A stretch of 64,000 nt of DNA from Bacteroidota bacterium (GTDB taxonomy: Bacteria; Bacteroidota; Bacteroidia; Bacteroidales; UBA10428). The notes under the pieces were generated by a model. That model saw nothing but the letters and a program-made list of their open reading frames with translations. It had not been told where the DNA came from and did no database searches. Both the position numbers and the translations under genes were made by a program. Below are positions 36,871 through 63,890 of this stretch, piece after piece (within the stretch, counting starts at the first letter, position 1; each line of letters begins with the position of its first letter). Location of the stretch: contig JAEZZA010000004.1 in NCBI GenBank assembly GCA_023442525.1, forward strand, positions 32,052 through 96,051, read 5' to 3'.

Positions 36871-39800
36871 ATGGAAGCCATATTTCTCAATCTATTTCAT
36901 TTTTTCAGAAAGCGAAGGCTGTGGCTTTTTGTGGCTGTAATTGCCATTATCTCCGTGGCAGTTTTCCTGGCATCGCGAATTAAACTTGAAGAAGACATAA
37001 CCCGGATGATCAGCGGAAGCGATAAAACGGGTATGTTGACAAAAATTGTGGAGCAATCTGAATTTCTGGATAAGATTATAATTACCTTATCAACAGAAGA
37101 TATAACGTATAAGGATTCTCTTGAAAAAGCCGGTGATCGTCTGGCCGACACCCTGCTTTCACCTGCTTTTCAGCCCTATGTCAAAGAAGTAACTTACAAA
37201 ATAAGCGACACTGTTGTTGAAGCCATGTTTAACCTGGTATACAACAATCTGCCGCTGTTTCTTGAAGAAGAGGATTATGCAGCTGTTGACTCTGCCATCC
37301 TTCCGCATAGTATCGACCGCTCGGTACTGAATGTCTACAGGAATTTGCTATCACCGGCAAGCTTTGCAATGAAAAAAATGATCCTCCGCGACCCACTCGG
37401 CATAAGCTCAATTGCACTAAAAAAGCTGGGATCATTTCAGAACGACGAGAATTATACCATGGTGAACAGCAGGATCTATTCACGTGATACCACTTCACTG
37501 ATGCTGTTCATTTCACCGGTGTACAAGCCGAAAGAAACTTCGAAAAACGTTGAATTTGCAGATATTCTGCGCAATACTCTGAAAGAAATAGGCTCTGAAT
37601 ATAATGTAGAAGCAGCAGCCTTCGGTTCGGCACTAATAGCCGCAGGTAATGCCGACCGGCTTAAAAGAGACATAAGACTTACCCTGAGTATTTCCATTAT
37701 TCTGCTGACACTGATCATTTCTTTTTCTATCCGCAAGAAAAAACTGTTTCCGTTCATTTTCTTACCCGCTGTATTTGGCGGCATCCTTGCACTGGCAGTC
37801 CTTTTTCTGCTGAAGGGAAAAGTCTCCGTAATATCTCTCAGCATTGGTTCGGTTATTCTGGCTATTACTGTCGACTACGCCCTTCATATCACAACTCATT
37901 ACAAACACAGGCATTCCATCATCGGAACAATCAAGGATGTTTCATTCCCTATTATCGTTTGTGGCTTTGCCACGGCTTTTGAATTTCTTGCCCTTGTTTT
38001 TGTTTCATCCGAATCGTTGAAGGAACTTGGAATTCTGGCTGCCATCAGCGTGGTTACTGCTGCATTTTTCACCATGGTTGTTCTTCCGCATATACTGGAA
38101 ATGTCAACAGGCAAGGCGGATGAGACCGAAGAAAAAAACCTGCTTGAATGGGTTCTCGATAAAATTACACGATATGCCTTTCATAAAAAGAAGTTGCTAT
38201 TGGCTGCCATGGTGATTTATTCAATAGCTTCTCTCTTTTATTTAAGCCGTGTAGGTTTTGAGAGCGATATGATGAAGATGAATTACATGTCGGCAGACCT
38301 CAGAAAAGCAGAAAGTAAACTGGACCGGATCAATAATGCAAGCCTGAATTCGATATACGTTGTATCTTACGGTAACAATATTCAAAAAGCCCTGGAAAGT
38401 AATGAAAGAGTGATTTCAAGGGCATCGGATCTGAAATCGGAGGGAATTGTAAGCAACTATACTTCTCCCGCTTCACTTCTGATGTCTGATTCCGTTCAAC
38501 AGCAAAAAATTCAGAAATGGAATGAATTCTGGAGTAATCATGATATAGCAGCAGTTATTAATACTCTTGACGCTAAGGCAAGCCGGACAGGTTTCAGATC
38601 AGGGTCATTCGAAGAGTTCACCAGTCTTCTTGGCAATTCCTATTCTCCTGATTCCAATCTTTTTCGCACGCTACAATCGATTTTCTCAATTGAAAACATT
38701 TCGGTAAATCCGGAAATGACATCGATTGTCACGGCTTTGAAAGTTCGCCCCGAAAATGTGGATAAAGCCTCGGCAAGCTTTGCCGATATACAGGGCGCAA
38801 TGGTCATTGACAGGAAATCTGCTCTTTCGGGAATTGTAGATACCCTGGGGGATGATTTCAATTTCATTGCAAATGTCAGCCTGTTGCTTATCCTGCTTGT
38901 ACTGATCCTGGCATTTGGCCGGCTTGAACTGGGAATTATCACTTTTGTGCCAATTTTTCTCAGTTGGATATGGACCCTCGGTTTTATGGGAATGACAGGT
39001 ATAAAATTCAATATTTTTAATATCATCATATCGTCGTTTATCACAGGACTGGGAATTGATTACAGCATTTACATCATGCAGGGCCTTGTACAGGGTTATA
39101 AATCCGATAACCATAACCTGCTTTCCTATAAAACCTGCATACTGATTTCGGTTATGATATCCATATCCGGCACCGGAGTTATGATCCTGGCCAAACATCC
39201 GGCATTGAATTCCATAGCGATAATTTCCATTTTTGGACTTCTTGCCGTAGTACTGATTTCCTATACTTTTGAACCTCTGCTATTCAATTACCTGGTGTCG
39301 AAGAACAATAAACCACGGGTACTGCCTGTTACACTTTCCGACATCCTCACAACCATTGTGGTGTTTACGATTTTTGTAATTGGTTGTGTTTTTATGAATG
39401 CAGTTCTGCTACTGGTATGGATAATACCTGTGAAAAAGGAATATAAGAAATTATGGATTCATTATGCCATAATGTTGTGGTGCAGGATACCAGTATATGC
39501 CATGATTCACATCCGGAAATCTGTTGTGAATACCAGCAGAGAGGATTTTTCAAAACCTGCCCTTATAATCAGTAACCACCAGTCGCACATCGATCTTCTG
39601 CTTCTGCTTATGCTTAATCCGAAGCTGATTGTGTTAACCACAAAATGGGTTTGGAATAATCCCATTTATATGCTGGTAATACGGTACCTCAACTATTACC
39701 CGGTAATGGAGGGTTATGGTGATCTGATGGAAAAGATCAGCGATCGGGTAAAAGAAGGTTATTCCGTGATTGTGTTTCCCGAAGGGAGCCGTTCGGCCGA

Positions 39801-40713
39801 TTCGTCTATTACCCGCTTCCACAAAGGAGCTTTTCTGATGGCACATACACTGGGATTGGATCTTTTGCCTGTTATCATTCACGGAGCAGGCGATTGCATG
39901 AACAAAGGTGAGAATCACCTGCGTGGCGGATCAATCACCGTTAAAATATTCCCCCGTATTAAACCCGGTGATCCGGAATATGGTGCCGATTATCACGAAA
40001 TGAAAAATTCCATGCTTCGCTTTTACAGGCAGAACTATGCACGAATGAAAGAGGAGCTTGAAACGCCGGATTATTTCAGAAGAAAGCTGATTCGAAACTA
40101 TATTTATAAAGGACCGGTTCTGGAATGGTATACCCGAATCAAGCTTTCACTTGAGAATAATTATATCTGCCTGAACGATCTGATTCCCCGGAAAGCCACA
40201 ATAACTGATATTGGATGCGGATATGGGTACCTTACCCACATACTCAGCTTTGTTTCAAGCGAACGTACCATTACTGCGTTTGATTATGACGAGGATAAAA
40301 TTGAGGTTGCCTCCGGTTGCATGTCAATCCAACCCAATGTTGAATTCAGATGTGCCGATGTAACAACCGTTGATTTTACTGAATCGGATGTTTTCGTTCT
40401 GAGCGATGTGCTGCATTATTTGCCGGATGATAAACAGGAAGAACTTATATCGAGATGCATGCAAAAATTGAAACCGGGTGGTAAGATTTTGATTCGCGAT
40501 GCAGATCGTGATTTGGTAAAACGACATAAAGGAACACGCTATACAGAATTCTTTTCCACACGTTCAGGCTTTAATAAATCGAATAACAACCGGCTCTATT
40601 TCTTTGCGGGAAGCAAGATCAGGACAATTGCAGGAAAAAATGGATTCAATATAAAAGAATCCGATCAAACGAAATTAACTTCCAATATTTTGTATGTTTT
40701 GGAGAGAGCATAG
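36871..40713 (+). CDS. Three-domain fusion: MMPL/RND-like exporter + PlsC-type lysophospholipid acyltransferase + class I SAM methyltransferase
   Basis: 1280 aa. Residues 1 to about 810 form two TM bundles separated by two large loops (MMPL-like). An LPLAT domain follows with NHQSHIDLLLL (HX4D) and FPEGSRS near aa 900-960. The methyltransferase motif I DIGCGYGYL is near aa 1112. It is a single uninterrupted ORF. Confidence 0.8.
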   Translation: MEAIFLNLFHFFRKRRLWLFVAVIAIISVAVFLASRIKLEEDITRMISGSDKTGMLTKIVEQSEFLDKIIITLSTEDITYKDSLEKAGDRLADTLLSPAFQPYVKEVTYKISDTVVEAMFNLVYNNLPLFLEEEDYAAVDSAILPHSIDRSVLNVYRNLLSPASFAMKKMILRDPLGISSIALKKLGSFQNDENYTMVNSRIYSRDTTSLMLFISPVYKPKETSKNVEFADILRNTLKEIGSEYNVEAAAFGSALIAAGNADRLKRDIRLTLSISIILLTLIISFSIRKKKLFPFIFLPAVFGGILALAVLFLLKGKVSVISLSIGSVILAITVDYALHITTHYKHRHSIIGTIKDVSFPIIVCGFATAFEFLALVFVSSESLKELGILAAISVVTAAFFTMVVLPHILEMSTGKADETEEKNLLEWVLDKITRYAFHKKKLLLAAMVIYSIASLFYLSRVGFESDMMKMNYMSADLRKAESKLDRINNASLNSIYVVSYGNNIQKALESNERVISRASDLKSEGIVSNYTSPASLLMSDSVQQQKIQKWNEFWSNHDIAAVINTLDAKASRTGFRSGSFEEFTSLLGNSYSPDSNLFRTLQSIFSIENISVNPEMTSIVTALKVRPENVDKASASFADIQGAMVIDRKSALSGIVDTLGDDFNFIANVSLLLILLVLILAFGRLELGIITFVPIFLSWIWTLGFMGMTGIKFNIFNIIISSFITGLGIDYSIYIMQGLVQGYKSDNHNLLSYKTCILISVMISISGTGVMILAKHPALNSIAIISIFGLLAVVLISYTFEPLLFNYLVSKNNKPRVLPVTLSDILTTIVVFTIFVIGCVFMNAVLLLVWIIPVKKEYKKLWIHYAIMLWCRIPVYAMIHIRKSVVNTSREDFSKPALIISNHQSHIDLLLLLMLNPKLIVLTTKWVWNNPIYMLVIRYLNYYPVMEGYGDLMEKISDRVKEGYSVIVFPEGSRSADSSITRFHKGAFLMAHTLGLDLLPVIIHGAGDCMNKGENHLRGGSITVKIFPRIKPGDPEYGADYHEMKNSMLRFYRQNYARMKEELETPDYFRRKLIRNYIYKGPVLEWYTRIKLSLENNYICLNDLIPRKATITDIGCGYGYLTHILSFVSSERTITAFDYDEDKIEVASGCMSIQPNVEFRCADVTTVDFTESDVFVLSDVLHYLPDDKQEELISRCMQKLKPGGKILIRDADRDLVKRHKGTRYTEFFSTRSGFNKSNNNRLYFFAGSKIRTIAGKNGFNIKESDQTKLTSNILYVLERA

Positions 40714-41563: not shown

Positions 41564-42145
41564 ATGGAACTCCTGAATTCACCTTACTTTGATTATATCA
41601 TACTTCCGTTATTGATTTTTGTCCTGCGCATTTTCGACGTTTCACTCGATACGATGCGTATTATATTTATGACTAAAGGCTACAGGAAACTGGCTCCGGT
41701 AATCGGATTTTTTGAGATTCTCATCTGGATTGTGGCTATAACCCGGATAATGCAAAACCTGAATAACTGGGTGACTTATATAGGTTATGCCGCAGGTTTT
41801 GCTACTGGTAATTACGTGGGAATGTTGCTCGACGAGAAACTCGCAATTGGTCATGAAATGATACGGGTGATAACCAAAATTGAGCCGACCGGTTTGGCCG
41901 ACAGACTACGAAGTGCAGGTTTCGGAGTTACTTCGGTGAGAGCAACGGGAATGCAGGGCGATGTGGGCATCCATTATATTGTTGTTAACCGGAAGAACCT
42001 GAAAACTGCAGTTAAAATAATTGAAGAACATTCACCCAGTGCCTTCTACACTGTAGAAAACATACATTTTGTAAACCGTCCGCTCGATAAAAATATTAAT
42101 CCCAACAGGGGAGGAACAGAGATAGTTCCGAAGGCGAGACCGTGA
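41564..42145 (+). CDS. UPF0316/DUF2179 family membrane protein
   Basis: 193 aa. DVSLDTMRIIFMTKGYRKLAPVIGFFEILIW and AYAAGFATGNYVGMLLDEKLAIG are typical of the family, with a C-terminal DUF2179-like soluble domain. Confidence 0.8.
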   Translation: MELLNSPYFDYIILPLLIFVLRIFDVSLDTMRIIFMTKGYRKLAPVIGFFEILIWIVAITRIMQNLNNWVTYIGYAAGFATGNYVGMLLDEKLAIGHEMIRVITKIEPTGLADRLRSAGFGVTSVRATGMQGDVGIHYIVVNRKNLKTAVKIIEEHSPSAFYTVENIHFVNRPLDKNINPNRGGTEIVPKARP

Positions 42146-42190
42146 CTGCCTGACTGCCTGACTGCACGACAGCCCGACTGCCCGACTTAC
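42143..42190. repeat. 6 x 8-bp degenerate tandem array filling a convergent intergenic spacer
   Basis: The units are TGACTGCC, TGACTGCC, TGACTGCA, CGACAGCC, CGACTGCC, CGACTTAC. The array starts at the TGA stop of the plus gene and ends across the TTA (stop, minus) of the LysE gene. Confidence 0.85.
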
Positions 42191-42783
42191 CCTAAAATGA
42201 ACCAGGATCCGATTCCGATAAGGATAATACCTGACGCAATGTAAATGCCCCGCAATATCCGCGTATGAATCAGATTACTTAGGCGGTAGGCGAAATAAGC
42301 CTTTATTATGTCAAATATTGCCATTACTGTCAGGGCAGCAGCATAGTATATGAAAGTTTCTTTTCCGCTATGGGTGAAATTCCTCAGCGATACAGCCATG
42401 GTACCCATCCAGAAGATGAGTACCGAGGGATTCATGAGGTTAACAAAAAATCCGTTGGCAAAGGTCTTCCAGTTTTGCTGAACAGAAAGTGTTTCCAATT
42501 CGGCCTTTTTCCGTCTTAAAATATAATTCACACCAAAGGCCATAAAAAGAACTCCACCTGTAATATTGAAATACTGGTTACTGATAACAGTCTGGTTTAT
42601 CCACGAGGCAAAGAAATAGATCGATGTAATAATCATCGCATCACACAGAACAACGCCTGCGTCAAACCAGAGGGCTGCCTTAAATCCCCTGGTCATGCTG
42701 GTTTCAATCAGCATAAAGAAAGTAGCTCCAAGCAGTGTACTTAGTACAAGGCCTGTTAACAGGCCTTTAATTATTATGTCCAT
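42187..42783 (-). CDS. LysE/RhtB family amino-acid-type exporter
   Basis: 198 aa with about 6 TM helices and N-terminus MDIIIKGLLTGLVLSTLLGATFFMLIE. Its start overlaps the GH3 gene end by 17 nt. Confidence 0.75.
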   Translation of the reverse strand: MDIIIKGLLTGLVLSTLLGATFFMLIETSMTRGFKAALWFDAGVVLCDAMIITSIYFFASWINQTVISNQYFNITGGVLFMAFGVNYILRRKKAELETLSVQQNWKTFANGFFVNLMNPSVLIFWMGTMAVSLRNFTHSGKETFIYYAAALTVMAIFDIIKAYFAYRLSNLIHTRILRGIYIASGIILIGIGSWFILG

Positions 42784-44314
42784 TCAGATACTGTCTTGAA
42801 AACTCGTTCCACTCGGCATATTGATTCCCGATAACTCTGGGAAATTTATGTTGTCCTCCTTCTTTTCCTTTCATTTTTAGCCATTCATAGAATGCCTTGG
42901 GCTGAATAATCTCAACCAATACTTCTTTTAATGCAGCCCGTCTTTCAACCGCGTAATCATCATTCAGTTTACACAACGTCTGATCGAGCAGGTCCCTCAG
43001 TTTCTGCGGGTCAAAAATCGCATCGTCGGTACCAATGTACCATTTATGAGCAAATCTTTTTTCAAAAGGAATTCCGGCAACCGTGAATTCTTTAATCTGG
43101 ATATTCATTGCTTCCGCAATTTCGCTAATAGCACTCGTCATATTGTCCACGCTCAGATGTTCACCGCATAAACTCAAAAAGTGCTTGGTACGCCCTGTTA
43201 TTACAATTTCATAATCTTTTACAGAAGTAAATTTTATGGTATCACCTATCAGATACCGCCATGTGCCTGCGTTGGTTGAAATGATCAGCGCATAATCCTC
43301 ATTCTCCCTGACTTCATCCAGGAGTAATACCTGCGGATTTTTAACCAGACTTCCATCCGGTCGAAAATTAGAGGAGTTGAAAGGTATAAATTCAAAAAAG
43401 ATACCATTATCCAGTACGAGTTGCATGGGCCGGTCTTTTTTGCGCTGATATGCAAGAAAACCCTCAGACGCCAGATAAGTTTCGAGGTAATGAATTTCTT
43501 TACCCATTAACTTCTCAAACGATTTCCTATAGGGCGAGAAATGAACTCCGCCATGCGCAAATACCCTGAAATTTGGCCAGAGATCATGGATATTTTGCAA
43601 ACCGTAATGATCAATAATCTTTTCCAGAAGGATTTGAACCCATGCCGGGACGCCGCAGATTCCTCCGATATTCCAGTCCTTGGCTTTGAGAACAATTTTA
43701 TCAAGCTTGGTATTCCAGTCTTTTTCCTTTGAGATCTGCCCCGGTTTATAAAAACTGTTGAACCAGAAGGGTAATCTTCCGGCAAGTATACCGCTCAGGT
43801 CACCCTCAAAGTATTTTTCCATGTTTATCAGAGACGTACTGCCTCCCAGCATGAGGATGCTGCTTTCATAGAAATGAGGAGGAAGATCCAGTTCGGCAAG
43901 GGACAAAAGTTGCCGTATTCCAATCTTTCGGATCGACTTGATCATATCGCGTGTGATAGGAACGCGTTTACTTGAATCATTGGATGTCCCCGACGTCAAT
44001 CCAAAGTACTTAACCTTACCAGGCCAGGTTACATCGGGTTTACCTTCGAGCAGCAAATGCCAGTATTCACTGAAAAGTAGTTCATAGTTGTACAGTGGCA
44101 CATTTTTCCTGAATTCGCCAACAACATCATCATTGTCCAGTATTTCACCGAAAACGTGATCTTTCCCGAAACGGGTATTTCGTGCTTTCTGTAACAATGC
44201 CTGCAAGGTTTTCACCTGCAGATTGAAGTTTAATTGCTTTTTTTCGAGGCTGTTTTTCCTGTTTATCAGTACACCATGCAAAATATTACCCACGAGAGCC
44301 ATATCGCAATGCAA
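42767..44314 (-). CDS. GH3 family protein (acyl-acid amido synthetase-like adenylating enzyme)
   Basis: About 511-515 aa. Contains GLTSGTSNDSSKRVPIT and YLASEGFLAYQ blocks, as in bacterial GH3 auxin-responsive-promoter family proteins. The alternative start MALVGN is at 44302. Confidence 0.75.
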   Translation of the reverse strand: MHCDMALVGNILHGVLINRKNSLEKKQLNFNLQVKTLQALLQKARNTRFGKDHVFGEILDNDDVVGEFRKNVPLYNYELLFSEYWHLLLEGKPDVTWPGKVKYFGLTSGTSNDSSKRVPITRDMIKSIRKIGIRQLLSLAELDLPPHFYESSILMLGGSTSLINMEKYFEGDLSGILAGRLPFWFNSFYKPGQISKEKDWNTKLDKIVLKAKDWNIGGICGVPAWVQILLEKIIDHYGLQNIHDLWPNFRVFAHGGVHFSPYRKSFEKLMGKEIHYLETYLASEGFLAYQRKKDRPMQLVLDNGIFFEFIPFNSSNFRPDGSLVKNPQVLLLDEVRENEDYALIISTNAGTWRYLIGDTIKFTSVKDYEIVITGRTKHFLSLCGEHLSVDNMTSAISEIAEAMNIQIKEFTVAGIPFEKRFAHKWYIGTDDAIFDPQKLRDLLDQTLCKLNDDYAVERRAALKEVLVEIIQPKAFYEWLKMKGKEGGQHKFPRVIGNQYAEWNEFSRQYLNGHNN

Positions 44315-44351
44315 TTTGAGAAAATAGGGCGTAAATGTAACAAAAAAGTAA

Positions 44352-45608
44352 TTAGTCGATCAGGTCTATCATTTCCTGTTCAACTTCAATTCGGGCAGTC
44401 TTTAGCATATCGATTGCAATTTCAATGTCCTTTTCCTGGTGTGATGCCATAAGCTGGAACCTGAAAATAGCCTTGCTTTTGGGAACAGCAGGAAATTCAA
44501 TAAGATTCAGCAATAGTCCTTTTTCAAAGATCTTTTTAAAGATCATACGCGCCGGACGTTCGTGTCCTATCAGCACAGGAACAATTTGTGAAGGTATACC
44601 ATTAAGCGTGAATCCGTTTTCTTTGAATTTGCTTACCGTGAACTGCACGAGCTCTCTCAGACGGTTTCTGATATCTTCACCTTCCTGCGAAAAGATTAGG
44701 TCCAGGCTCTGCGATGCAATATGGCATTGTAAGGGCGAAGCACCGGTAGAAAATACATATGTTGGCGTCATAGCAACCATTTGTCGCCTGATATCCGCCG
44801 GCCCTGAAACAAAACCTCCATTGGTGCCAAAGGCTTTGCTGAATGCGCCGCATATCACCAGGTTTTTTGAATAATCCAGGTCGATTGTTTCAAGCAGTCC
44901 AAGTCCGTGCTTACCCATTACACCCAGGTCATGAGCCGTGTCAATAATAACAATGGCATCGTACTTATAAGCGAGTTCCATTAACCGGCGCAGATCAGGC
45001 GAATCCGAATTCATGGAATATAACGTTTCTGTTACAATAAACAGACCGTTCTTATCATCTATCTGTCGGCATCGTTCAAGGACGGCATTCAGATGCGTCA
45101 TGTCGTTATGATTGAACTTGAAAATGTTCTGGGTTGAAAACTTCGATGCAACCTGCATACAGTTATGAGCCAGGGCATCTATTACAATAGTATCCTTCCC
45201 GTTTGTCAGTCCGGTAACGGCTCCGAAACATGCCATCCAGCCCGACGGAAAGATCAGGGTACTTTTCTGGTGAAGCAGATTCGATAACTTGTCTTCCAAC
45301 TCTGCCGTCCATACTGTTCTTCCGGTGAGAGTTGGGGACCCCGAACTGTGAATAATATTGTTATGGCTGATGAAATCCAACAACGAATCAATAATCTTCT
45401 TATTCGTTGATAATCCGAGGTAATCCTGGGTACCGAAGTTCAATGGCCTTCGGTTATCATTTTCCAGTCCAAAAGGCCAAAGATTCTGTTCTTCTCTTAA
45501 GGTTCCCCAATGGTTGAAAGGAGCATATCTTTCTGTGAGATTCTTTCCTGAAAAATTCATGAAATTCAAACCACTACCCTCGTAAGGTCCTAAAAATTGC
45601 GAAGTCAT
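44352..45608 (-). CDS. Alpha-oxoamine synthase family PLP enzyme (BioF/Kbl/Spt-like)
   Basis: 418 aa with DTAHDLG and PLP-lysine context GAFSKAFGTNGG. No bio genes are nearby. Confidence 0.85.
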   Translation of the reverse strand: MTSQFLGPYEGSGLNFMNFSGKNLTERYAPFNHWGTLREEQNLWPFGLENDNRRPLNFGTQDYLGLSTNKKIIDSLLDFISHNNIIHSSGSPTLTGRTVWTAELEDKLSNLLHQKSTLIFPSGWMACFGAVTGLTNGKDTIVIDALAHNCMQVASKFSTQNIFKFNHNDMTHLNAVLERCRQIDDKNGLFIVTETLYSMNSDSPDLRRLMELAYKYDAIVIIDTAHDLGVMGKHGLGLLETIDLDYSKNLVICGAFSKAFGTNGGFVSGPADIRRQMVAMTPTYVFSTGASPLQCHIASQSLDLIFSQEGEDIRNRLRELVQFTVSKFKENGFTLNGIPSQIVPVLIGHERPARMIFKKIFEKGLLLNLIEFPAVPKSKAIFRFQLMASHQEKDIEIAIDMLKTARIEVEQEMIDLID

Positions 45609-45623
45609 CCGGAAATATATTTA

Positions 45624-47423
45624 TTATTCACCTGTTTCTCCTTTTTGTACAGAAAAAATCTCCTCAATAAGCTTCGCATAGCGACTTACCAGGAATTTTC
45701 TCTTTAATTTCAGCGTGGGCGACAATTCTCCGGTATTCGGACTCCATTCTTCCTGAACAAGGCGAAATCTTTTGATTTGCTCTGTCTGGCCAAGTTGTTT
45801 GTTCATTTCAATAACAACCCGCTGGAATCTGGCAATTACCTCAGGAATCTGAATAAGTTCCGCGTTATCGCGAAATGCAATACCATGCCTCATTGCCCAG
45901 TTGTGAAGGAAGTTAAACTCAGGTGAAATAATCGCGCTGGCGAATTTCTGGTTTTCACCAATTACCATAACTTGCTCTATAAAACTGGATTCCTTTAGCT
46001 TATTCTCGATTACCTGTGGAGCAATATATTTGCCGCTTGAAAGCTTGAACATTTCTTTTTTTCGATCGGTAATTTTTAGATACCTGTTTTCCAACAGAAT
46101 ACCTATATCGCCGGTGTGAAGCCACCCCTCTTCGTCTATCACCTCTTTGGTAAGCACGGGATCGCCGTAATAACCTGCCATAACATTCGGACCCTTGCAG
46201 AGGATCTCTCCATCGTGAGCTATTCGCACTTCAACACCAGGAACTGCCGGGCCAACGGTACCGATACGTATGTCGCCAGTGGCCGGATGCCGATTGGTGG
46301 CTATAACAGGCGACGATTCCGTCATTCCGTATCCTTCAGCAACCGGTACGCCGGCTGCATTAAATATTACACACAGTCGGGGTTGCAATGCTGCACCTCC
46401 TGCAACAATCAACTGAACCTGACCACCCAAAGCCTGGCGCCATTTCCTGAATACAAGCTTGTCGGCTATCATTAGCCTGAATTTATACCACCAGTTGTTT
46501 GTTTCAGGAATTCGATATTTCATCCCCAGGTTTACTGCCCAGAAAAAAATCTGTTTCCTGATTCCGTGCAATTCCCTTCCCTTGCTTAATATTTTGTCGT
46601 ATGTGCGTTCCAGAAGCCTTGGTACGGTTATAAAGACATGGGGCCGTACTTCTTTCAGATTTTCCGAAATAGTACCCAGGTTCTCCGAATAGTAAATGCC
46701 TGCACCTATACTTTGAAAATAATAATTAATGGTTCTTTCAAAAACATGGCTTATCGGAAGAAAACTCAAGGTGCGGTGAGTGTGATTGAAATCATAGGTC
46801 TGTGAAATAGAGAGCACATTGCTCATAATATTCCGGTGCGATAGCATAACACCCTTGGGATATCCGGTAGTCCCCGATGTATAGATCAATGTGGCCAGGT
46901 CTTCTTCCTTTATCGACCGCCTTATCTTGTCGAGTGTCTGATTCAGGCTTTCCGATTTTTTAATGCCCAGATCCAGTATTTGCTTCCAGTGCTTTGCACC
47001 TTCAACTGCGTTGTAGGTATAAATATCACGAATGCTCTTTATTTTTTCAGCAATGGGCTTCAGTTTATCGTACAACCCGCGGTCAGAAACTATTAGCAGC
47101 CTGGGTTCACAATTACCCAGAATATAGGTATAATCATCTTCGCTAATAGTAGGATAAATCGGAACATGAATAACTCCGATCTGGCTGAGCGCCATATCCA
47201 TGATGTTCCATTCGGGACGGTTATTTGAAATGGTAGCTACCATATCGCCCTTCTGCAGTCCCGTTGCAATCAGGCCGTAACTTGTATTTTCAACTAATTC
47301 GAGATATTCTTTAACCGAATATCTAACCCATGAACCTTTTTCCTTACCAGCAAGTATATCCTCTTTTTCCGGACAGATTTTCAGTAAGTTATCCAGGATG
47401 TCAAAAGTCCTCAACAAATCCAT
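45624..47423 (-). CDS. Long-chain acyl-CoA synthetase (AMP-dependent ligase)
   Basis: 599 aa with YTSGTTGYPKGV, GYGMTES and TGDIG motifs. Its stop is 15 nt upstream of the AOS start. Confidence 0.85.
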   Translation of the reverse strand: MDLLRTFDILDNLLKICPEKEDILAGKEKGSWVRYSVKEYLELVENTSYGLIATGLQKGDMVATISNNRPEWNIMDMALSQIGVIHVPIYPTISEDDYTYILGNCEPRLLIVSDRGLYDKLKPIAEKIKSIRDIYTYNAVEGAKHWKQILDLGIKKSESLNQTLDKIRRSIKEEDLATLIYTSGTTGYPKGVMLSHRNIMSNVLSISQTYDFNHTHRTLSFLPISHVFERTINYYFQSIGAGIYYSENLGTISENLKEVRPHVFITVPRLLERTYDKILSKGRELHGIRKQIFFWAVNLGMKYRIPETNNWWYKFRLMIADKLVFRKWRQALGGQVQLIVAGGAALQPRLCVIFNAAGVPVAEGYGMTESSPVIATNRHPATGDIRIGTVGPAVPGVEVRIAHDGEILCKGPNVMAGYYGDPVLTKEVIDEEGWLHTGDIGILLENRYLKITDRKKEMFKLSSGKYIAPQVIENKLKESSFIEQVMVIGENQKFASAIISPEFNFLHNWAMRHGIAFRDNAELIQIPEVIARFQRVVIEMNKQLGQTEQIKRFRLVQEEWSPNTGELSPTLKLKRKFLVSRYAKLIEEIFSVQKGETGE

Positions 47424-47544
47424 GTAAAAACTATTTCTATTTCAAATATAACTAATAAGTCCATATTTTTCTGATGTTATGTATCATTATCATTTTTTTA
47501 GCCTGTTGAAAAAATTACCTTTTCTTGATAATTAAGAAAGATGT

Positions 47545-48492
47545 ATGAAGAAACTTGCCGTTATTGCATTAGGTGGAAACGCCCTTCAGAGGGATAATCA
47601 GAAAGGGACCATTGAGGAACAGGAGAAAAACACATTCAAAACTCTTGAGAACCTGGTATTTCTTTTAAAAGAAGAATATGAACTGGTAATAACCCATGGT
47701 AATGGTCCGCAGGTTGGGGATTTACTGCAACGCAATGACGCCGGTGAGCAGGTATATGGAATCCCGCAGATGCCGCTTGATGTTTGCGTAGCCGGTACCC
47801 AGGGCGAAATCGGTTATATGATTGAACGTATACTTCGCAATGTACTGAACAAGCATGGGATAGAGAAAAACGTGATAAGCCTTATCAGCCAGATTGTGGT
47901 TGACAAAAAGAGCAAGTCGTTTAACAATCCGGTGAAGCGTATCGGCAGAAGCTATTCGCCTGAAATGGCAAAAAAACTTGAGCTTGAGAAAAACTGGATT
48001 TTTAAGGAAGAAAAGAAGTCCGACGGCGGTTTGCGGCGTGTGGTGGCTTCTCCGGAACCGGTACGGATTCTCAACAGCGACATCATTACCGACCTGGTAC
48101 GTAAAGGAAATATAGTGCTGGCCGCCGGAGGCGGTGGAATCCCGGTTTATATCGATGCAAAGGGAAACTACCGTCCGGTTGAGGCGGTGATCGATAAAGA
48201 TATGGCTTCAGCACTGCTGGCAGTTTGCGTGAAAGCTGATGAATTTTACATCCTGACTGATGTGCCTTATGTTTATCTGAACTATAAAAAGCCGGATCAG
48301 AAGATCGCTGAATTCATTACACGCGATGAAGCCCGATTGTACCTGGAATCGGGGATGTTCGGCGAGGGTACTATGGCTCCTAAGATGAAAGCTGCTCTGT
48401 ATTTTATTGAACATGGAGGTAGTAAAAGTGTAATTACAGAGGCAACCAAGCTTGAGAACAAGAAATACGGATCGAGGATAACCATGAATTAA
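47545..48492 (+). CDS. arcC: Carbamate kinase
   Basis: 315 aa with MKKLAVIALGGNAL and THGNGPQVG. Confidence 0.9.
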   Translation: MKKLAVIALGGNALQRDNQKGTIEEQEKNTFKTLENLVFLLKEEYELVITHGNGPQVGDLLQRNDAGEQVYGIPQMPLDVCVAGTQGEIGYMIERILRNVLNKHGIEKNVISLISQIVVDKKSKSFNNPVKRIGRSYSPEMAKKLELEKNWIFKEEKKSDGGLRRVVASPEPVRILNSDIITDLVRKGNIVLAAGGGGIPVYIDAKGNYRPVEAVIDKDMASALLAVCVKADEFYILTDVPYVYLNYKKPDQKIAEFITRDEARLYLESGMFGEGTMAPKMKAALYFIEHGGSKSVITEATKLENKKYGSRITMN

Positions 48493-62825: not shown

Positions 62826-63890
62826 TTGAAAATGACTAAAGAACTCTTTATTAAGTTTTTGAATGGAACATGCACTGACGCTGAATTTGGGCAAATACTG
62901 ACATGGATTAAGGAAGAATCCCTTTCGGTTGAAAGCAAACGAATGATCCGGGAGGTATGGGATGAATTTGAACCTTCTGCAGATCCTGAAGCACGGTTAA
63001 AATACAATCGATTACTGGATAGTATACATCACAAAATCAATCTGAATCAGGAATCAGTACGTCCTGTGGTACGGCCGTTACCATCATCCGGAAGAATACT
63101 GACTCTGATTACACGGGCAGCTGCTATTTTGCTTCTGCCGGTGCTATCTATATTACTATATAAAATAGGTATAGATAATGTCAGGTACAGTGAAAATCTG
63201 AACGACATTCAGATTGAGTCTCCTGCAGGATTCAGAATGAATATCACTCTTGGCGACGGTACACAGGTTTGGCTGAATAACGGCAGCAAACTCAGGTACC
63301 CGTATCAGTTTAAAGGAAATAGCCGTAGGGTGTTCCTCACAGGTGAGGCATATTTTAAAGTAGAACATTCTGACAGGATACCTTTTATAGTTGAAACTGC
63401 CGATCTGGAGGTGAAGGCAACAGGAACGTCGTTTAACGTAAATGCTTATCCGGACGAAGATTTTACAGAAACAACGCTTGTGGAAGGCAGTATTACGGTA
63501 TATGACAGGAGCAGAAACCGTAAGATAAAAGATATGTTTCCCAACGAGTACCTTAAGTTTGATGCTGAAAAAAACGTTTCTGAGTTGAAATCAGACGAGC
63601 CAATCGACAAGTATATCTCGTGGAAAGACGGAATCCTGATCTTTAAGAACGATTCTGTGACTGAGATAGCCCGAAAATTGTCGCAGTGGTACAATGTGGA
63701 TGTCAGGATCAGCGACGAGAGAGTAAATAAGTTCACATTCACAGCTACTTTCTATGGTGAGACTTTATCACAGGTACTTGAACTTTTGTCTTTGCCCAGC
63801 CCGGTTAACTATAAGCTTACACCATTAAACAGATTGGCCGACGGGAGCTTTTCGAGGCAGAGTGTATTGATTTCGCTTAAGAACAACTGA
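62826..63890 (+). CDS. FecR family anti-sigma factor
   Basis: 354 aa with a central TM helix (AAAILLLPVLSILLY), a FecR domain (TLGDGTQVWLNNGSKLRYP...GEAYFKV) and a C-terminal DUF4974-like region. Confidence 0.85.
   Translation: MKMTKELFIKFLNGTCTDAEFGQILTWIKEESLSVESKRMIREVWDEFEPSADPEARLKYNRLLDSIHHKINLNQESVRPVVRPLPSSGRILTLITRAAAILLLPVLSILLYKIGIDNVRYSENLNDIQIESPAGFRMNITLGDGTQVWLNNGSKLRYPYQFKGNSRRVFLTGEAYFKVEHSDRIPFIVETADLEVKATGTSFNVNAYPDEDFTETTLVEGSITVYDRSRNRKIKDMFPNEYLKFDAEKNVSELKSDEPIDKYISWKDGILIFKNDSVTEIARKLSQWYNVDVRISDERVNKFTFTATFYGETLSQVLELLSLPSPVNYKLTPLNRLADGSFSRQSVLISLKNN

What the first reader, a model, noticed from the sequence alone, without database searches (positions are those of the whole stretch)
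42187..47423. Compact fadD-like / alpha-oxoamine synthase / GH3 / LysE operon of unknown product
Four minus-strand genes are packed with 15-nt and 37-nt gaps and one 17-nt overlap:
- a 599-aa long-chain acyl-CoA ligase
- an alpha-oxoamine synthase (PLP Lys in GAFSKAFG), which would condense an acyl-thioester with an amino acid
- a GH3-family enzyme; in plants GH3 proteins adenylate an acyl acid and ligate it to an amino acid, while their role in bacteria is essentially uncharacterised
- a LysE/RhtB small-molecule exporter

Read together, these look like a self-contained pathway: activate a fatty or aryl acid, build an amino-ketone or sphingoid/capnoid-like backbone, add an amide-linked group, and export the product. 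No bio, kbl/tdh or known sphingolipid/sulfonolipid partner genes are adjacent. I am not aware of a described system with this composition. It also sits directly beside the pigment cluster.
Basis: inference. Interest (0 to 1): 0.6.

Follow-up and report, generated by a model that had tools for sequence, protein, structure and literature searches.

The report
Two gene pairs, not one pathway
Four tightly packed genes that looked like one new lipid-making pathway are better read as two neighbouring units: a fatty-acid activator with an uncharacterised condensing enzyme, and an enzyme-plus-exporter pair of unknown product that is conserved in both Bacteroidota orders sampled.

Summary
The four minus-strand ORFs are real and as compact as described. 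GH3 most likely starts at ATG 44302, which makes the AOS-GH3 spacer 49 nt. The family calls hold.

Comparative data split the array into two units.

- **GH3-LysE.** This pair is tightly coupled (median spacing 1 nt). It occurs in 62 of 71 GH3 loci, down to 52% GH3 identity, in Bacteroidales and Cytophagales, with no FadD or AOS nearby.
- **FadD-AOS.** FadD is a widespread ACSL-type ligase with its own Bacteroidetes -7 box in 17/17 loci. The AOS follows it with no such box in 16/17 loci.
- **AOS distribution.** Close relatives (at least 63% identity) come only from one Bacteroidales MAG lineage. There the FadD|GH3 slot occurs in five states, two of them without the AOS.
- **GH3 promoter.** GH3 keeps a -7 box at -33 to -37 in 14/20 loci (-47 in L045).

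The AOS reaches no curated BioF, Kbl, Spt or CqsA cutoff. It belongs to an uncharacterised clade in which Gln replaces a conserved Asn. GH3 resembles OlsH, the GH3-like lyso-ornithine-lipid synthetase described in 2025, but scores below its cutoff.

Best reading: a FadD-AOS operon lies next to a GH3-LysE "conjugate and export" module conserved across Bacteroidota orders. A single four-step pathway is not excluded, but it is unsupported.

The parts
47443..47450 (-). Bacteroidetes-type -7 promoter box TATATTTG, 27 nt upstream of the FadD ATG
   Evidence: This is the only perfect TAnnTTTG on the minus strand of 42100-47600. A perfect box sits at -27 to -36 in 17/17 FadD loci, including unlinked contexts L127 and L128. 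That TAnnTTTG is the Bacteroides -7 consensus is my own knowledge (Bayley et al. 2000).
45624..47423 (-). ACSL-type long-chain fatty acid-CoA ligase (FadD-like), 599 aa
   Evidence: Pfam AMP-binding 239 bits + AMP-binding_C_3. The best NCBIfam hit is FadD11, 350 bits, below the 950 cutoff. The homolog search saturates at 8000 proteins, and all of the top 120 are at least 64% identical. The gene is found in unrelated contexts without AOS or GH3.
44352..45608 (-). alpha-oxoamine synthase of an uncharacterised clade, 418 aa, probably co-transcribed with FadD
   Evidence: No NCBIfam equivalog cutoff is reached: bioF 278/426, Kbl 208/460, Spt-CFB 212/640, CqsA-type 156/428. The best PDB hit is Sphingobacterium Spt at 167 bits; CapB and SulA reach about 110. 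Catalytic residues H148, D223, H226, K258 and R383 align with those of BioF. The clade motif FGTQDYL has Gln where BioF, Kbl and Spt have Asn. The spacer to FadD is 15 nt, and there is no -7 box upstream in 16/17 loci.
44332..44339 (-). degenerate -7 box TACATTTA, 37 nt upstream of the GH3 ATG (the homologous position carries a perfect TAnnTTTG in most relatives)
   Evidence: Of 20 loci, 14 have a perfect TAnnTTTG at -33 to -37 of the GH3 ATG (one more, L045, at -47), whether the upstream gene is AOS, DUF1684, Amidohydro_3, FadD or unrelated. The window, L009 and L047 have TAnnTTTA at that place.
42767..44302 (-). GH3-family acyl-acid amido synthetase (OlsH-like), 511 aa from ATG 44302
   Evidence: Pfam GH3, GH3_M and GH3_C are all above gathering. 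NF052613 OlsH scores 347 bits, below the 620 cutoff. The three nucleotide-binding motifs T103SGTSNDSSK112, T275YLASE280 and G346TWRYLIGD354 match those defined for OlsH and for plant GH3; their core residues are invariant in A1. The best structural matches of the low-confidence model are all plant GH3.
42187..42783 (-). LysE/RhtB-type small-molecule carrier, 198 aa, overlapping the GH3 stop by 17 nt
   Evidence: Pfam LysE 69 bits, with a weak hit to TIGR00949 RhtB. A kindred gene lies immediately downstream of GH3 in 62/71 loci. Median spacing is 1 nt. The hydropathy profile fits a multi-pass membrane protein.

Best explanation
The array is a juxtaposition of two transcription units on one strand, not one dedicated pathway.

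**Unit 1: FadD-AOS.** It is driven by a conserved Bacteroidetes-type promoter in front of FadD.
- FadD is a widespread ACSL-type ligase that turns free fatty acids into acyl-CoA (inferred from family).
- The AOS is confined to one Bacteroidales lineage and has been lost repeatedly within it. It would condense such an acyl-CoA with an amino acid to give a 2-amino-3-ketone. The chemistry is inferred from intact catalytic residues. Both substrates are unknown.

**Unit 2: GH3-LysE.** This bicistron, found in both Bacteroidota orders sampled, has its own promoter box.
- GH3 adenylates a carboxylic acid and joins it to an amine or amino acid, as plant GH3 and OlsH do (inferred from intact motifs).
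- The translationally coupled LysE/RhtB carrier moves the conjugate, or one of its substrates, across the inner membrane (inferred from conserved coupling only).

In this window there is no terminator between the units and the GH3 box is imperfect. Read-through from unit 1 into unit 2 is therefore likely, but that is a local circumstance.
For: **GH3-LysE is an independent pair.**
- LysE lies directly downstream of GH3 in 62 of 71 GH3 loci with enough sequence. Median spacing is 1 nt.
- This holds down to 52% GH3 identity and 24% LysE identity, in Algoriphagus and Cyclobacteriaceae as well as Bacteroidales.
- Among the 83 GH3 loci, the AOS appears only in L047 and FadD only in L047 and L048.
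- L045 and L046 show GH3-LysE in unrelated contexts.
- In assembly GCA_016928305.1, FadD (L128) and GH3-LysE (L045) lie on different contigs.

**The FadD|GH3 slot has five states.**
- FadD-GH3 with a 54-nt spacer (L048).
- FadD-AOS-GH3.
- FadD-AOS-Amidohydro_3-DUF1684-GH3.
- FadD-AOS-Amidohydro_3-GH3.
- FadD-Amidohydro_3-DUF1684-GH3 without the AOS (L129).

The AOS-less GH3 proteins nest inside the AOS-bearing clade.

**Perfect promoter boxes.**
- FadD: 17/17 loci.
- AOS: 1/17 loci.
- GH3: 14/20 loci at -33 to -37 (one more, L045, at -47).

**Abundance.** The GH3 and FadD searches saturate at 8000 hits. The AOS search finds 442, of which only about 42 clusters are at least 63% identical.

**Enzyme integrity.** GH3 motifs are intact. 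AOS catalytic residues are intact.
Against: - The four genes are co-oriented, with spacers of 15 and 49 nt. No minus-strand terminator-like site lies in any of the spacers or downstream of LysE; the only minus-strand hits in the array are two weak 5-bp stems inside the FadD and LysE coding sequences.
- In the window and its two closest relatives the GH3 box is TAnnTTTA rather than TAnnTTTG. Local co-transcription of all four genes is therefore plausible.
- Separate operons do not exclude a shared pathway. In Rhodobacteria the ceramide N-acyltransferase gene is always in a different operon from aasR-cerR-acpR-spt (PMC11324152).
- Promoter boxes are motif matches only. No transcript data exist.
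- The loci are phylogenetically related, so the counts are not independent.
- No substrate of any of the four proteins is known.
Confidence: 0.62

Rival explanations
1. One reading: the four genes form one lineage-specific pathway. FadD makes an acyl-CoA. The AOS builds a long-chain 2-amino-3-ketone. GH3 N-acylates that amine using ATP and a free acid, giving a ceramide-like product. LysE exports or flips the product.
For: - The genes share a strand, have tight spacing and show no terminator-like site in the spacers.
- They are contiguous in 8 of 13 informative species-level MAGs.
- The GH3 promoter box is degenerate in the window, L009 and L047.
- N-acylation of the amino-ketone before reduction has a precedent in bacterial ceramide synthesis (PMC11087976). 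There too, the N-acyltransferase gene is a separate operon in the same region.
Against: - GH3-LysE is conserved in genomes and orders without the FadD/AOS neighbourhood.
- The AOS has been lost at least twice without any visible GH3 divergence.
- Unrelated genes (Amidohydro_3, DUF1684) sit between the AOS and GH3 in 5 of 13 MAGs.
- More distant AOS homologs (42-50% identity) are stand-alone genes.
- LysE/RhtB carriers are known for small amino-acid-like solutes, not two-chain lipids (own knowledge).
Confidence: 0.12
2. GH3 is a true OlsH ortholog that makes lyso-ornithine (or lysine) lipid. LysE is a basic-amino-acid or lyso-lipid carrier serving that pathway. FadD and the AOS are bystanders.
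For: - NF052613 (OlsH) is the only NCBIfam hit: 347 bits over residues 19-496.
- All three OlsH motifs are kept, including the essential Ser of motif 1.
- OlsH prefers ornithine and has minor activity on Lys and Arg. These are the classical LysE-family substrates (own knowledge).
Against: - The score is far below the 620-bit equivalog cutoff.
- No OlsI-type alpha/beta-hydrolase gene lies in the operon, whereas planctomycete olsH and olsI always share one.
- The OlsH authors themselves argue that CFB bacteria make ornithine lipid with OlsF/OlsB, and that their GH3 homologs probably use other amino acids.
Confidence: 0.15
3. The AOS is simply the genome's housekeeping BioF, Kbl, Spt or cysteate acyltransferase (CapB/SulA).
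For: The best NCBIfam profile is bioF (278 bits). The best solved structure is Sphingobacterium Spt (167 bits).
Against: - Every curated cutoff is missed by a wide margin.
- CapB and SulA reach only about 110 bits.
- The clade has Gln in place of the Asn seen in the BioF, Kbl and Spt chains aligned (FGTQDYL).
- The gene is variably present among close relatives.
- No bio, tdh, reductase or cysteate-synthase partner is in the window.
Confidence: 0.05
4. The AOS is a CqsA/LqsA-like signal synthase. It would make an alpha-amino or alpha-hydroxy-ketone autoinducer from FadD-supplied acyl-CoA.
For: Burkholderiales relatives (33-37% identity, same FGTQDYL motif) sit in receiver / AOS / two histidine kinases / REC-GGDEF-EAL arrays. 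This layout recalls cqsA-cqsS and lqsA-lqsS-lqsR.
Against: - No two-component genes flank the AOS in the window or in any Bacteroidota locus.
- The CqsA-type profile NF005526 scores only 156 bits against a cutoff of 428, lower than bioF.
- CqsA structures are not among the PDB matches at E<=1e-20.
Confidence: 0.06

Closest known systems
OlsH/OlsI ornithine-lipid pathway of Singulisphaera acidiphila (PMC12493201)
   Same: It is a bacterial GH3-like enzyme of about 510-526 aa. The three nucleotide-binding motifs are conserved. It is the only NCBIfam family hit by the window GH3. The presumed chemistry is the same: ATP-dependent amide bond between a free acid and an amino acid.
   Different: The score (347) is well below the equivalog cutoff (620). 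The partner gene is a LysE-type carrier rather than the alpha/beta-hydrolase OlsI and the methyltransferase OlsG. The acid and amine substrates are unknown. The OlsH paper does not mention a LysE neighbour.
Plant GH3 acyl-acid amido synthetases (JAR1, GH3.5, GH3.6, GH3.12, GH3.15)
   Same: Pfam GH3 N/M/C domains are present. These are the best sequence and fold matches in the PDB. The conjugation logic is the same (acid + amino acid).
   Different: Only about 13-16% identity in structural alignments. The window protein is about 70-100 residues shorter. It is encoded in an operon with a membrane carrier.
aasR-cerR-acpR-spt plus separate cerS of Rhodobacteria (bacterial ceramide synthesis; PMC11324152, PMC11087976)
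   Same: An AMP-forming acyl-activating enzyme and an AOS lie in one operon. An N-acylating enzyme lies in a separate transcription unit nearby. The amino-ketone is acylated before reduction.
   Different: There is no dedicated ACP and no reductase here. The AOS is not Spt by any curated cutoff. The N-acylating candidate is an ATP-dependent GH3, not a bCerS-type acyltransferase. GH3 is conserved independently of the AOS.
Cysteate acyltransferases CapB/SulA of sulfonolipid synthesis (PMC9304779; PDB 28eh, 7u7h)
   Same: Both are Bacteroidota AOS enzymes that build a long-chain base from an acyl-thioester.
   Different: They reach only about 110 bits against the window AOS, lower than Spt, Kbl and BioF. 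No cysteate synthase or ketocapnine reductase gene is nearby.
CqsA/LqsA alpha-hydroxyketone autoinducer synthases
   Same: They belong to the AOS superfamily. The Burkholderiales relatives of this AOS clade share the synthase-next-to-sensor-kinase layout.
   Different: NF005526 scores 156-179 bits against a cutoff of 428 for every AOS-clade member scanned (9 proteins). No sensor genes lie next to the Bacteroidales gene.
LysE/RhtB amino-acid exporters
   Same: Pfam LysE across the full length. About 200 aa, multi-pass membrane protein.
   Different: The best curated subfamily (TIGR00949) scores only 37 bits against a cutoff of 184. The gene is translationally coupled to an amide synthetase, an arrangement I did not find described in the literature searched.

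Membership tests
GH3 acyl-acid amido synthetase family | GH3 N-terminal, middle and C-terminal domains above Pfam gathering scores | tested here: met
   PF03321 91.3, PF23571 61.9 and PF23572 50.8 bits, each against a cutoff of 23.6.
GH3 acyl-acid amido synthetase family | Three nucleotide-binding motifs (SSGTSxGxxK, YGSSE, GLYRYRLGD in AtGH3.11; TSGTTQGATK, TYPCSE, GMWSHLIGD in OlsH) | tested here: met
   T103SGTSNDSSK112, T275YLASE280 and G346TWRYLIGD354 are present. Their core residues are invariant among 12 homologs at 63-100% identity.
GH3 acyl-acid amido synthetase family | GH3/ANL two-domain fold | tested here: inconclusive
   The AF2 model has mean pLDDT 65.6. Its top 27 PDB matches are all plant GH3, followed by PaaK-type ligases, but TM is only about 0.43-0.45.
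GH3 acyl-acid amido synthetase family | ATP- and Mg2+-dependent amide formation between an acid and an amino acid | not testable with these tools
   Needs an enzyme assay.
OlsH (lyso-ornithine lipid synthetase, NF052613) | Score at or above the curated equivalog cutoff | tested here: not met
   346.6 bits against a cutoff of 620.
OlsH (lyso-ornithine lipid synthetase, NF052613) | olsI (alpha/beta-hydrolase O-acyltransferase) in the same operon, as in all planctomycete cases | tested here: not met
   The neighbours are the AOS upstream and LysE downstream. The paper notes that CFB homologs are not in an operon with olsI.
OlsH (lyso-ornithine lipid synthetase, NF052613) | Ornithine and long-chain fatty acid as substrates | not testable with these tools
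   Needs an assay as in PMC12493201.
alpha-oxoamine synthase (AOS) family | PLP-binding Lys and the catalytic His/Asp/His/Arg set | tested here: met
   H148, D223, H226, K258 and R383 align with H133, D204, H207, K236 and the conserved Arg of E. coli BioF 1bs0.
BioF (TIGR00858) | Curated equivalog score; bio gene context | tested here: not met
   277.6 bits against a cutoff of 426.45. No bio genes in the window.
Kbl (NF005394 / TIGR01822) | Curated equivalog score; tdh neighbour | tested here: not met
   208.5 against 460 and 169.5 against 493. No tdh in the window.
Serine palmitoyltransferase of CFB bacteria (NF047600) | Curated equivalog score | tested here: not met
   211.6 bits against a cutoff of 640. 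Sphingobacterium Spt scores 167 bits by phmmer.
Cysteate acyltransferase CapB/SulA | Close similarity to the solved CapB (28eh) or SulA (7u7h) | tested here: not met
   110.8 and 108.2 bits, below Spt, Kbl and BioF.
CqsA/LqsA autoinducer synthase (NF005526) | Curated equivalog score; adjacent sensor kinase | tested here: not met
   156.3 bits against a cutoff of 428. No kinase gene lies next to the AOS in the window or in any Bacteroidota locus.
LysE/RhtB translocator family | Full-length PF01810 match above gathering; about 200 aa multi-pass membrane protein | tested here: met
   69.1 bits against a cutoff of 25.6, residues 13-196. The hydropathy scan shows four strong hydrophobic segments at the threshold used; two further weaker stretches (about residues 70-90 and 108-133) were judged by eye from the sequence.
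Long-chain acyl-CoA synthetase (ACSL/FadD type) | AMP-binding + C-terminal domain; curated equivalog score | tested here: inconclusive
   The Pfam domains are met. No NCBIfam equivalog cutoff is reached (best is FadD11, 350 against 950). Source databases name relatives 'long-chain acyl-CoA synthetase'. Whether the acceptor is CoA or ACP was not tested.

The most novel reading that the evidence does not exclude
In this Bacteroidales lineage an uncharacterised AOS clade has been recruited between FadD and the conserved GH3-LysE module. GH3 then acts as an ATP-dependent, CoA-independent 'ceramide-synthase-like' enzyme that N-acylates the AOS-made amino-ketone. LysE moves the product out. This would be a route to N-acyl amino-ketone or sphingoid-like molecules that uses none of the known bacterial ceramide enzymes.
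Probability: 0.1. Interest if true: 0.7.

Novelty: new variant of a known kind. Interest (0 to 1): 0.4.

Why it matters
The OlsH paper of 2025 reported that about 90% of more than 7500 bacterial GH3 homologs are in Bacteroidota, and that their function there is unknown.

This analysis gives that open question a concrete handle. In Bacteroidales and Cytophagales the GH3 gene is almost always translationally coupled to a LysE/RhtB-type carrier. That points to a made-and-moved amino-acid conjugate rather than a purely intracellular reaction. It also names an easy experiment: co-express the pair and look in the medium.

The analysis also flags an AOS clade (Gln for Asn in the substrate-contacting motif) that no curated family covers.

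For the finding itself, the value is mostly corrective. A tidy four-gene 'pathway' read from adjacency dissolves into two units once relatives are compared.

Tried and rejected
1. **AOS as BioF, Kbl, Spt, CapB/SulA or CqsA.** Rejected on curated cutoffs and PDB scores.
2. **Link to the neighbouring flexirubin/aryl-polyene cluster.** Rejected. GH3-LysE-DUF5698 occurs without the cluster in L045. The cluster ends at 40713, on the other strand and two genes away.
3. **A conserved upstream partner of GH3.** None found. The commonest neighbour is a divergent YggS-like gene (26/68 loci), followed by an Exo_endo_phos gene (9/68).
4. **Literature on GH3 + LysE or on AOS + acyl-CoA ligase in Bacteroidota.** Nothing beyond the OlsH paper, its review and one RB-TnSeq mention of a GH3 gene with a rhizosphere fitness effect. 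The supplements of that paper are not held.
5. **Sigma-70 promoter scan.** Uninformative: 17 hits against 17.6 expected. It was replaced by the Bacteroidetes -7 box.
6. **GH3 structure model from a 12-sequence alignment.** Poor (pLDDT 65.6). Used only as weak support.
7. **Organism names for the distant AOS homologs.** None available; all are uncultured.
8. **Compositional sign of recent transfer of the AOS.** None. GC is 0.434, against 0.432 for FadD, 0.417 for GH3 and 0.426 for the window. The GC3 values printed in that call used the wrong codon phase for minus-strand genes and are disregarded.

Full report
**1. Observation**

The four minus-strand ORFs exist at the stated coordinates, with gaps of 15 and 37 nt and a 17-nt overlap.
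- Pfam assigns AMP-binding + AMP-binding_C_3, Aminotran_1_2, GH3 (N, M and C domains) and LysE.
- The PLP lysine of GAFSKAFG is K258. It aligns with K236 of E. coli BioF, and H148, D223, H226 and R383 align with the other catalytic residues.
- One correction: the GH3 ORF most likely starts at ATG 44302 (MALVGN...) rather than TTG 44314. The identical database protein is 511 aa and relatives begin MAIVG. The AOS-GH3 spacer is therefore 49 nt.
- The window matches a 430-kb contig of an uncultured Bacteroidales MAG.
- Neighbours on one side are carbamate kinase, a glucosaminidase, fmt and ribBA. On the other side lie a DUF5698/DUF2179 membrane protein, a 200-aa ORF with no family hit, and the end of a flexirubin/aryl-polyene-type cluster.
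- No bio, tdh, reductase, cysteate-synthase or ceramide-synthase gene was found among the ORFs of at least 150 aa in the window (all but the last, 62826-63890, were scanned).

**2. What each protein is**

*FadD-like protein.*
- It is an ACSL-type ligase. Source databases name its relatives 'long-chain acyl-CoA synthetase'. It reaches no NCBIfam equivalog cutoff.

*AOS.*
- It misses every curated cutoff: bioF 278/426, Kbl 208/460, Spt-CFB 212/640, CqsA-type 156/428.
- Its best solved relative is Sphingobacterium Spt at only 167 bits. CapB and SulA reach about 110 bits.
- Its 42-50% relatives in other Bacteroidota and Verrucomicrobiales show the same profile fingerprint.
- The clade carries F[GS][ST]QDY[LM], with Gln where the aligned BioF, Kbl and Spt chains have Asn. 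From my own knowledge, that Asn contacts the substrate carboxylate in ALAS, Kbl and BioF. This was not tested here.

*GH3.*
- It hits a single NCBIfam model, OlsH (347 bits, cutoff 620).
- OlsH is a GH3-like enzyme of the planctomycete Singulisphaera. It makes N-acyl-ornithine from a free fatty acid, ATP and ornithine (PMC12493201).
- The three nucleotide-binding motifs defined there are present in the window protein; their core residues are invariant among its relatives.
- A low-confidence model (pLDDT 65.6) finds only plant GH3 structures as its best matches.

*LysE.*
- It is a full-length PF01810 protein with only a weak link to the RhtB subfamily.

**3. Is the neighbourhood conserved?**

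*Genome scan with an AOS alignment* (one genome per species):
- It returned 15 Bacteroidales MAG loci at 70-85% identity.
- The whole 20-kb region is syntenic in them, housekeeping genes included. Adjacency inside this lineage therefore says little by itself.
- FadD-AOS is always contiguous.
- In five MAGs, 2-2.7 kb (Amidohydro_3 with or without DUF1684) separates the AOS from GH3.
- More distant AOS homologs are stand-alone genes. One has an SDR upstream. None has FadD, GH3 or LysE nearby.

*Metagenome scan with a GH3 alignment:*
- It returned 80 loci at 52-78% identity.
- Together with three look-ups, 71 loci have at least 500 nt downstream of GH3. In 62 of them the next gene, on the same strand, is a LysE homolog.
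- Median spacing between the GH3 stop and the LysE start is 1 nt. In 64 of 77 pairs the genes overlap or lie within 20 nt.
- Exact-sequence look-ups place some of these loci in Algoriphagus, other Cyclobacteriaceae, and in other Bacteroidales; the Imperialibacter locus (L063) is one of the nine without a LysE neighbour (DUF6992 follows GH3 there).
- The AOS appears in only one of the 83 loci and FadD in two, all from the window's own lineage.

*FadD homologs:*
- At 64-69% identity they sit in unrelated contexts.
- In assembly GCA_016928305.1, FadD and GH3-LysE are on different contigs.

**4. The variable slot**

Within the lineage, the space between FadD and GH3 has five states:
- Empty, with a 54-nt spacer (L048).
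- AOS.
- AOS + Amidohydro_3 + DUF1684.
- AOS + Amidohydro_3.
- Amidohydro_3 + DUF1684 without the AOS (L129).

A neighbour-joining tree of the GH3 proteins puts the two AOS-less loci inside the AOS-bearing clade, in different sub-branches. The AOS was therefore probably ancestral to the lineage and lost at least twice, with no visible change in GH3.

Cluster counts agree roughly. About 34 clusters at 90% identity are at least 70% identical to the window protein for the AOS. The figures are about 78 for GH3 and about 95 for FadD.

**5. Transcription units (inferred)**

I scanned for the Bacteroides -7 consensus TAnnTTTG (own knowledge: Bayley et al. 2000). It occurs once on the minus strand of 42100-47600, 27 nt before the FadD ATG.

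Across relatives, a perfect box lies:
- at -27 to -36 of FadD in 17/17 loci;
- before the AOS in 1/17 loci;
- at -33 to -37 of GH3 in 14/20 loci (one more, L045, at -47), whatever gene is upstream.

The window, L009 and L047 have TAnnTTTA at the GH3 position. No minus-strand terminator-like site lies in any spacer of the array.

The simplest model is two units, [FadD-AOS] and [GH3-LysE], with likely read-through in this genome. No transcript data exist, so this remains inference.

**6. Mechanism**

*Shown here:*
- family membership;
- intact catalytic motifs;
- conservation patterns.

*Inferred:*
- FadD makes acyl-CoA.
- The AOS condenses an acyl-thioester with an amino acid to a 2-amino-3-ketone. 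By operon logic its acyl donor is the FadD product.
- GH3 adenylates an acid and amidates an amino acid or amine.
- LysE carries the conjugate, or a substrate, across the inner membrane.

The OlsH authors argue that CFB GH3 homologs probably make other N-acyl amino acids, because OlsF/OlsB already account for ornithine lipid there. One RB-TnSeq study lists a GH3 gene among those with a fitness effect in rhizosphere survival (PMC13440311).

**7. Rivals**

- *Four-step pathway.* It keeps some plausibility. In Rhodobacteria the ceramide N-acyltransferase gene always lies in a different operon from aasR-cerR-acpR-spt, and it acylates the amino-ketone directly. Against it stand the independence of GH3-LysE, the repeated loss of the AOS and the intervening genes.
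- *True OlsH ortholog.* It fails the score and the olsI-partner tests.
- *Housekeeping AOS.* It fails all cutoffs.
- *CqsA-like signal synthase.* It rests only on the layout of distant Burkholderiales relatives.

**8. Verdict**

The array is best described as two adjacent units. Each is a new variant of a known kind:
- an acyl-activating enzyme with an AOS of an uncharacterised clade;
- an OlsH-like GH3 coupled to a LysE carrier.

The second unit is the more general lead. I found no mention of the GH3-LysE coupling in the literature I could search.

Noticed in passing
L031 9482-16070 (also L024-L043): Burkholderiales MAGs carry AOS relatives (33-37% identity, same FGTQDYL motif). In L031 the AOS follows a response-regulator receiver domain in the same reading frame. 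It is followed by two HisKA/HATPase kinases and a REC-GGDEF-EAL protein. ORF clustering suggests a similar layout in most of the 19 loci. The layout is CqsA/LqsA-like, yet the three of these proteins scanned (L031, L033, L042) score only about 170 bits on the CqsA-type model (cutoff 428).
   Followed up: partly
window 45423-45443 (AOS residues 56-62, LNFGTQD): The whole AOS clade has Gln where the aligned BioF, Kbl and Spt chains have Asn (F[GS][ST]QDY[LM]). Counts: 39 of 42 close homologs, most distant Bacteroidota homologs and 18 of 18 Burkholderiales ones. This may be a marker of a different amino substrate.
   Followed up: partly
L129 8829-11338; L002 11320-13940; L015, L018, L020, L021, L049, L050: An Amidohydro_3 gene (529-548 aa), often with a DUF1684 gene, is inserted co-directionally between FadD/AOS and GH3 in one sub-clade of the lineage. 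An amidohydrolase next to an amide synthetase could be functional or could be chance.
   Followed up: partly
window about 47479-47499 (minus strand), FadD/carbamate-kinase divergent spacer: An element like AAAAAATGA[TC]A[AT]TGATCCAT lies about 55-75 nt upstream of the FadD ATG in most lineage loci, by eye. It may be a regulator site.
   Followed up: no
window 36871-40713: A 1280-aa fusion of MMPL transporter, acyltransferase and methyltransferase domains closes a flexirubin/aryl-polyene-type cluster (about 8062-40713). The cluster also holds a DarB-like KAS III, BtrH_N/DUF4872, an ABC transporter, six ketosynthase-like genes, tyrosine/histidine ammonia-lyase, KR, LolA-like, LPLAT and GT2-DUF2062 genes.
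   Followed up: partly
L002 / L016 14088-16749: GH3, LysE and the DUF5698/DUF2179 gene are all split into fragments on this 566-kb contig. Frameshift errors of the assembly are more likely than three neighbouring pseudogenes.
   Followed up: no
L059, L061-L064, L072 and others (26 of 68 GH3 loci): A YggS-like PLP-homeostasis gene lies divergently upstream of GH3 in many of the distant loci. It was identified by sequence motifs only, not by a family scan.
   Followed up: no
window 41564-42145; L045 12171-12719: A DUF5698 + DUF2179 membrane-protein gene is convergent with LysE throughout the lineage. The same holds in L045, which lacks FadD, the AOS and the pigment cluster.
   Followed up: no
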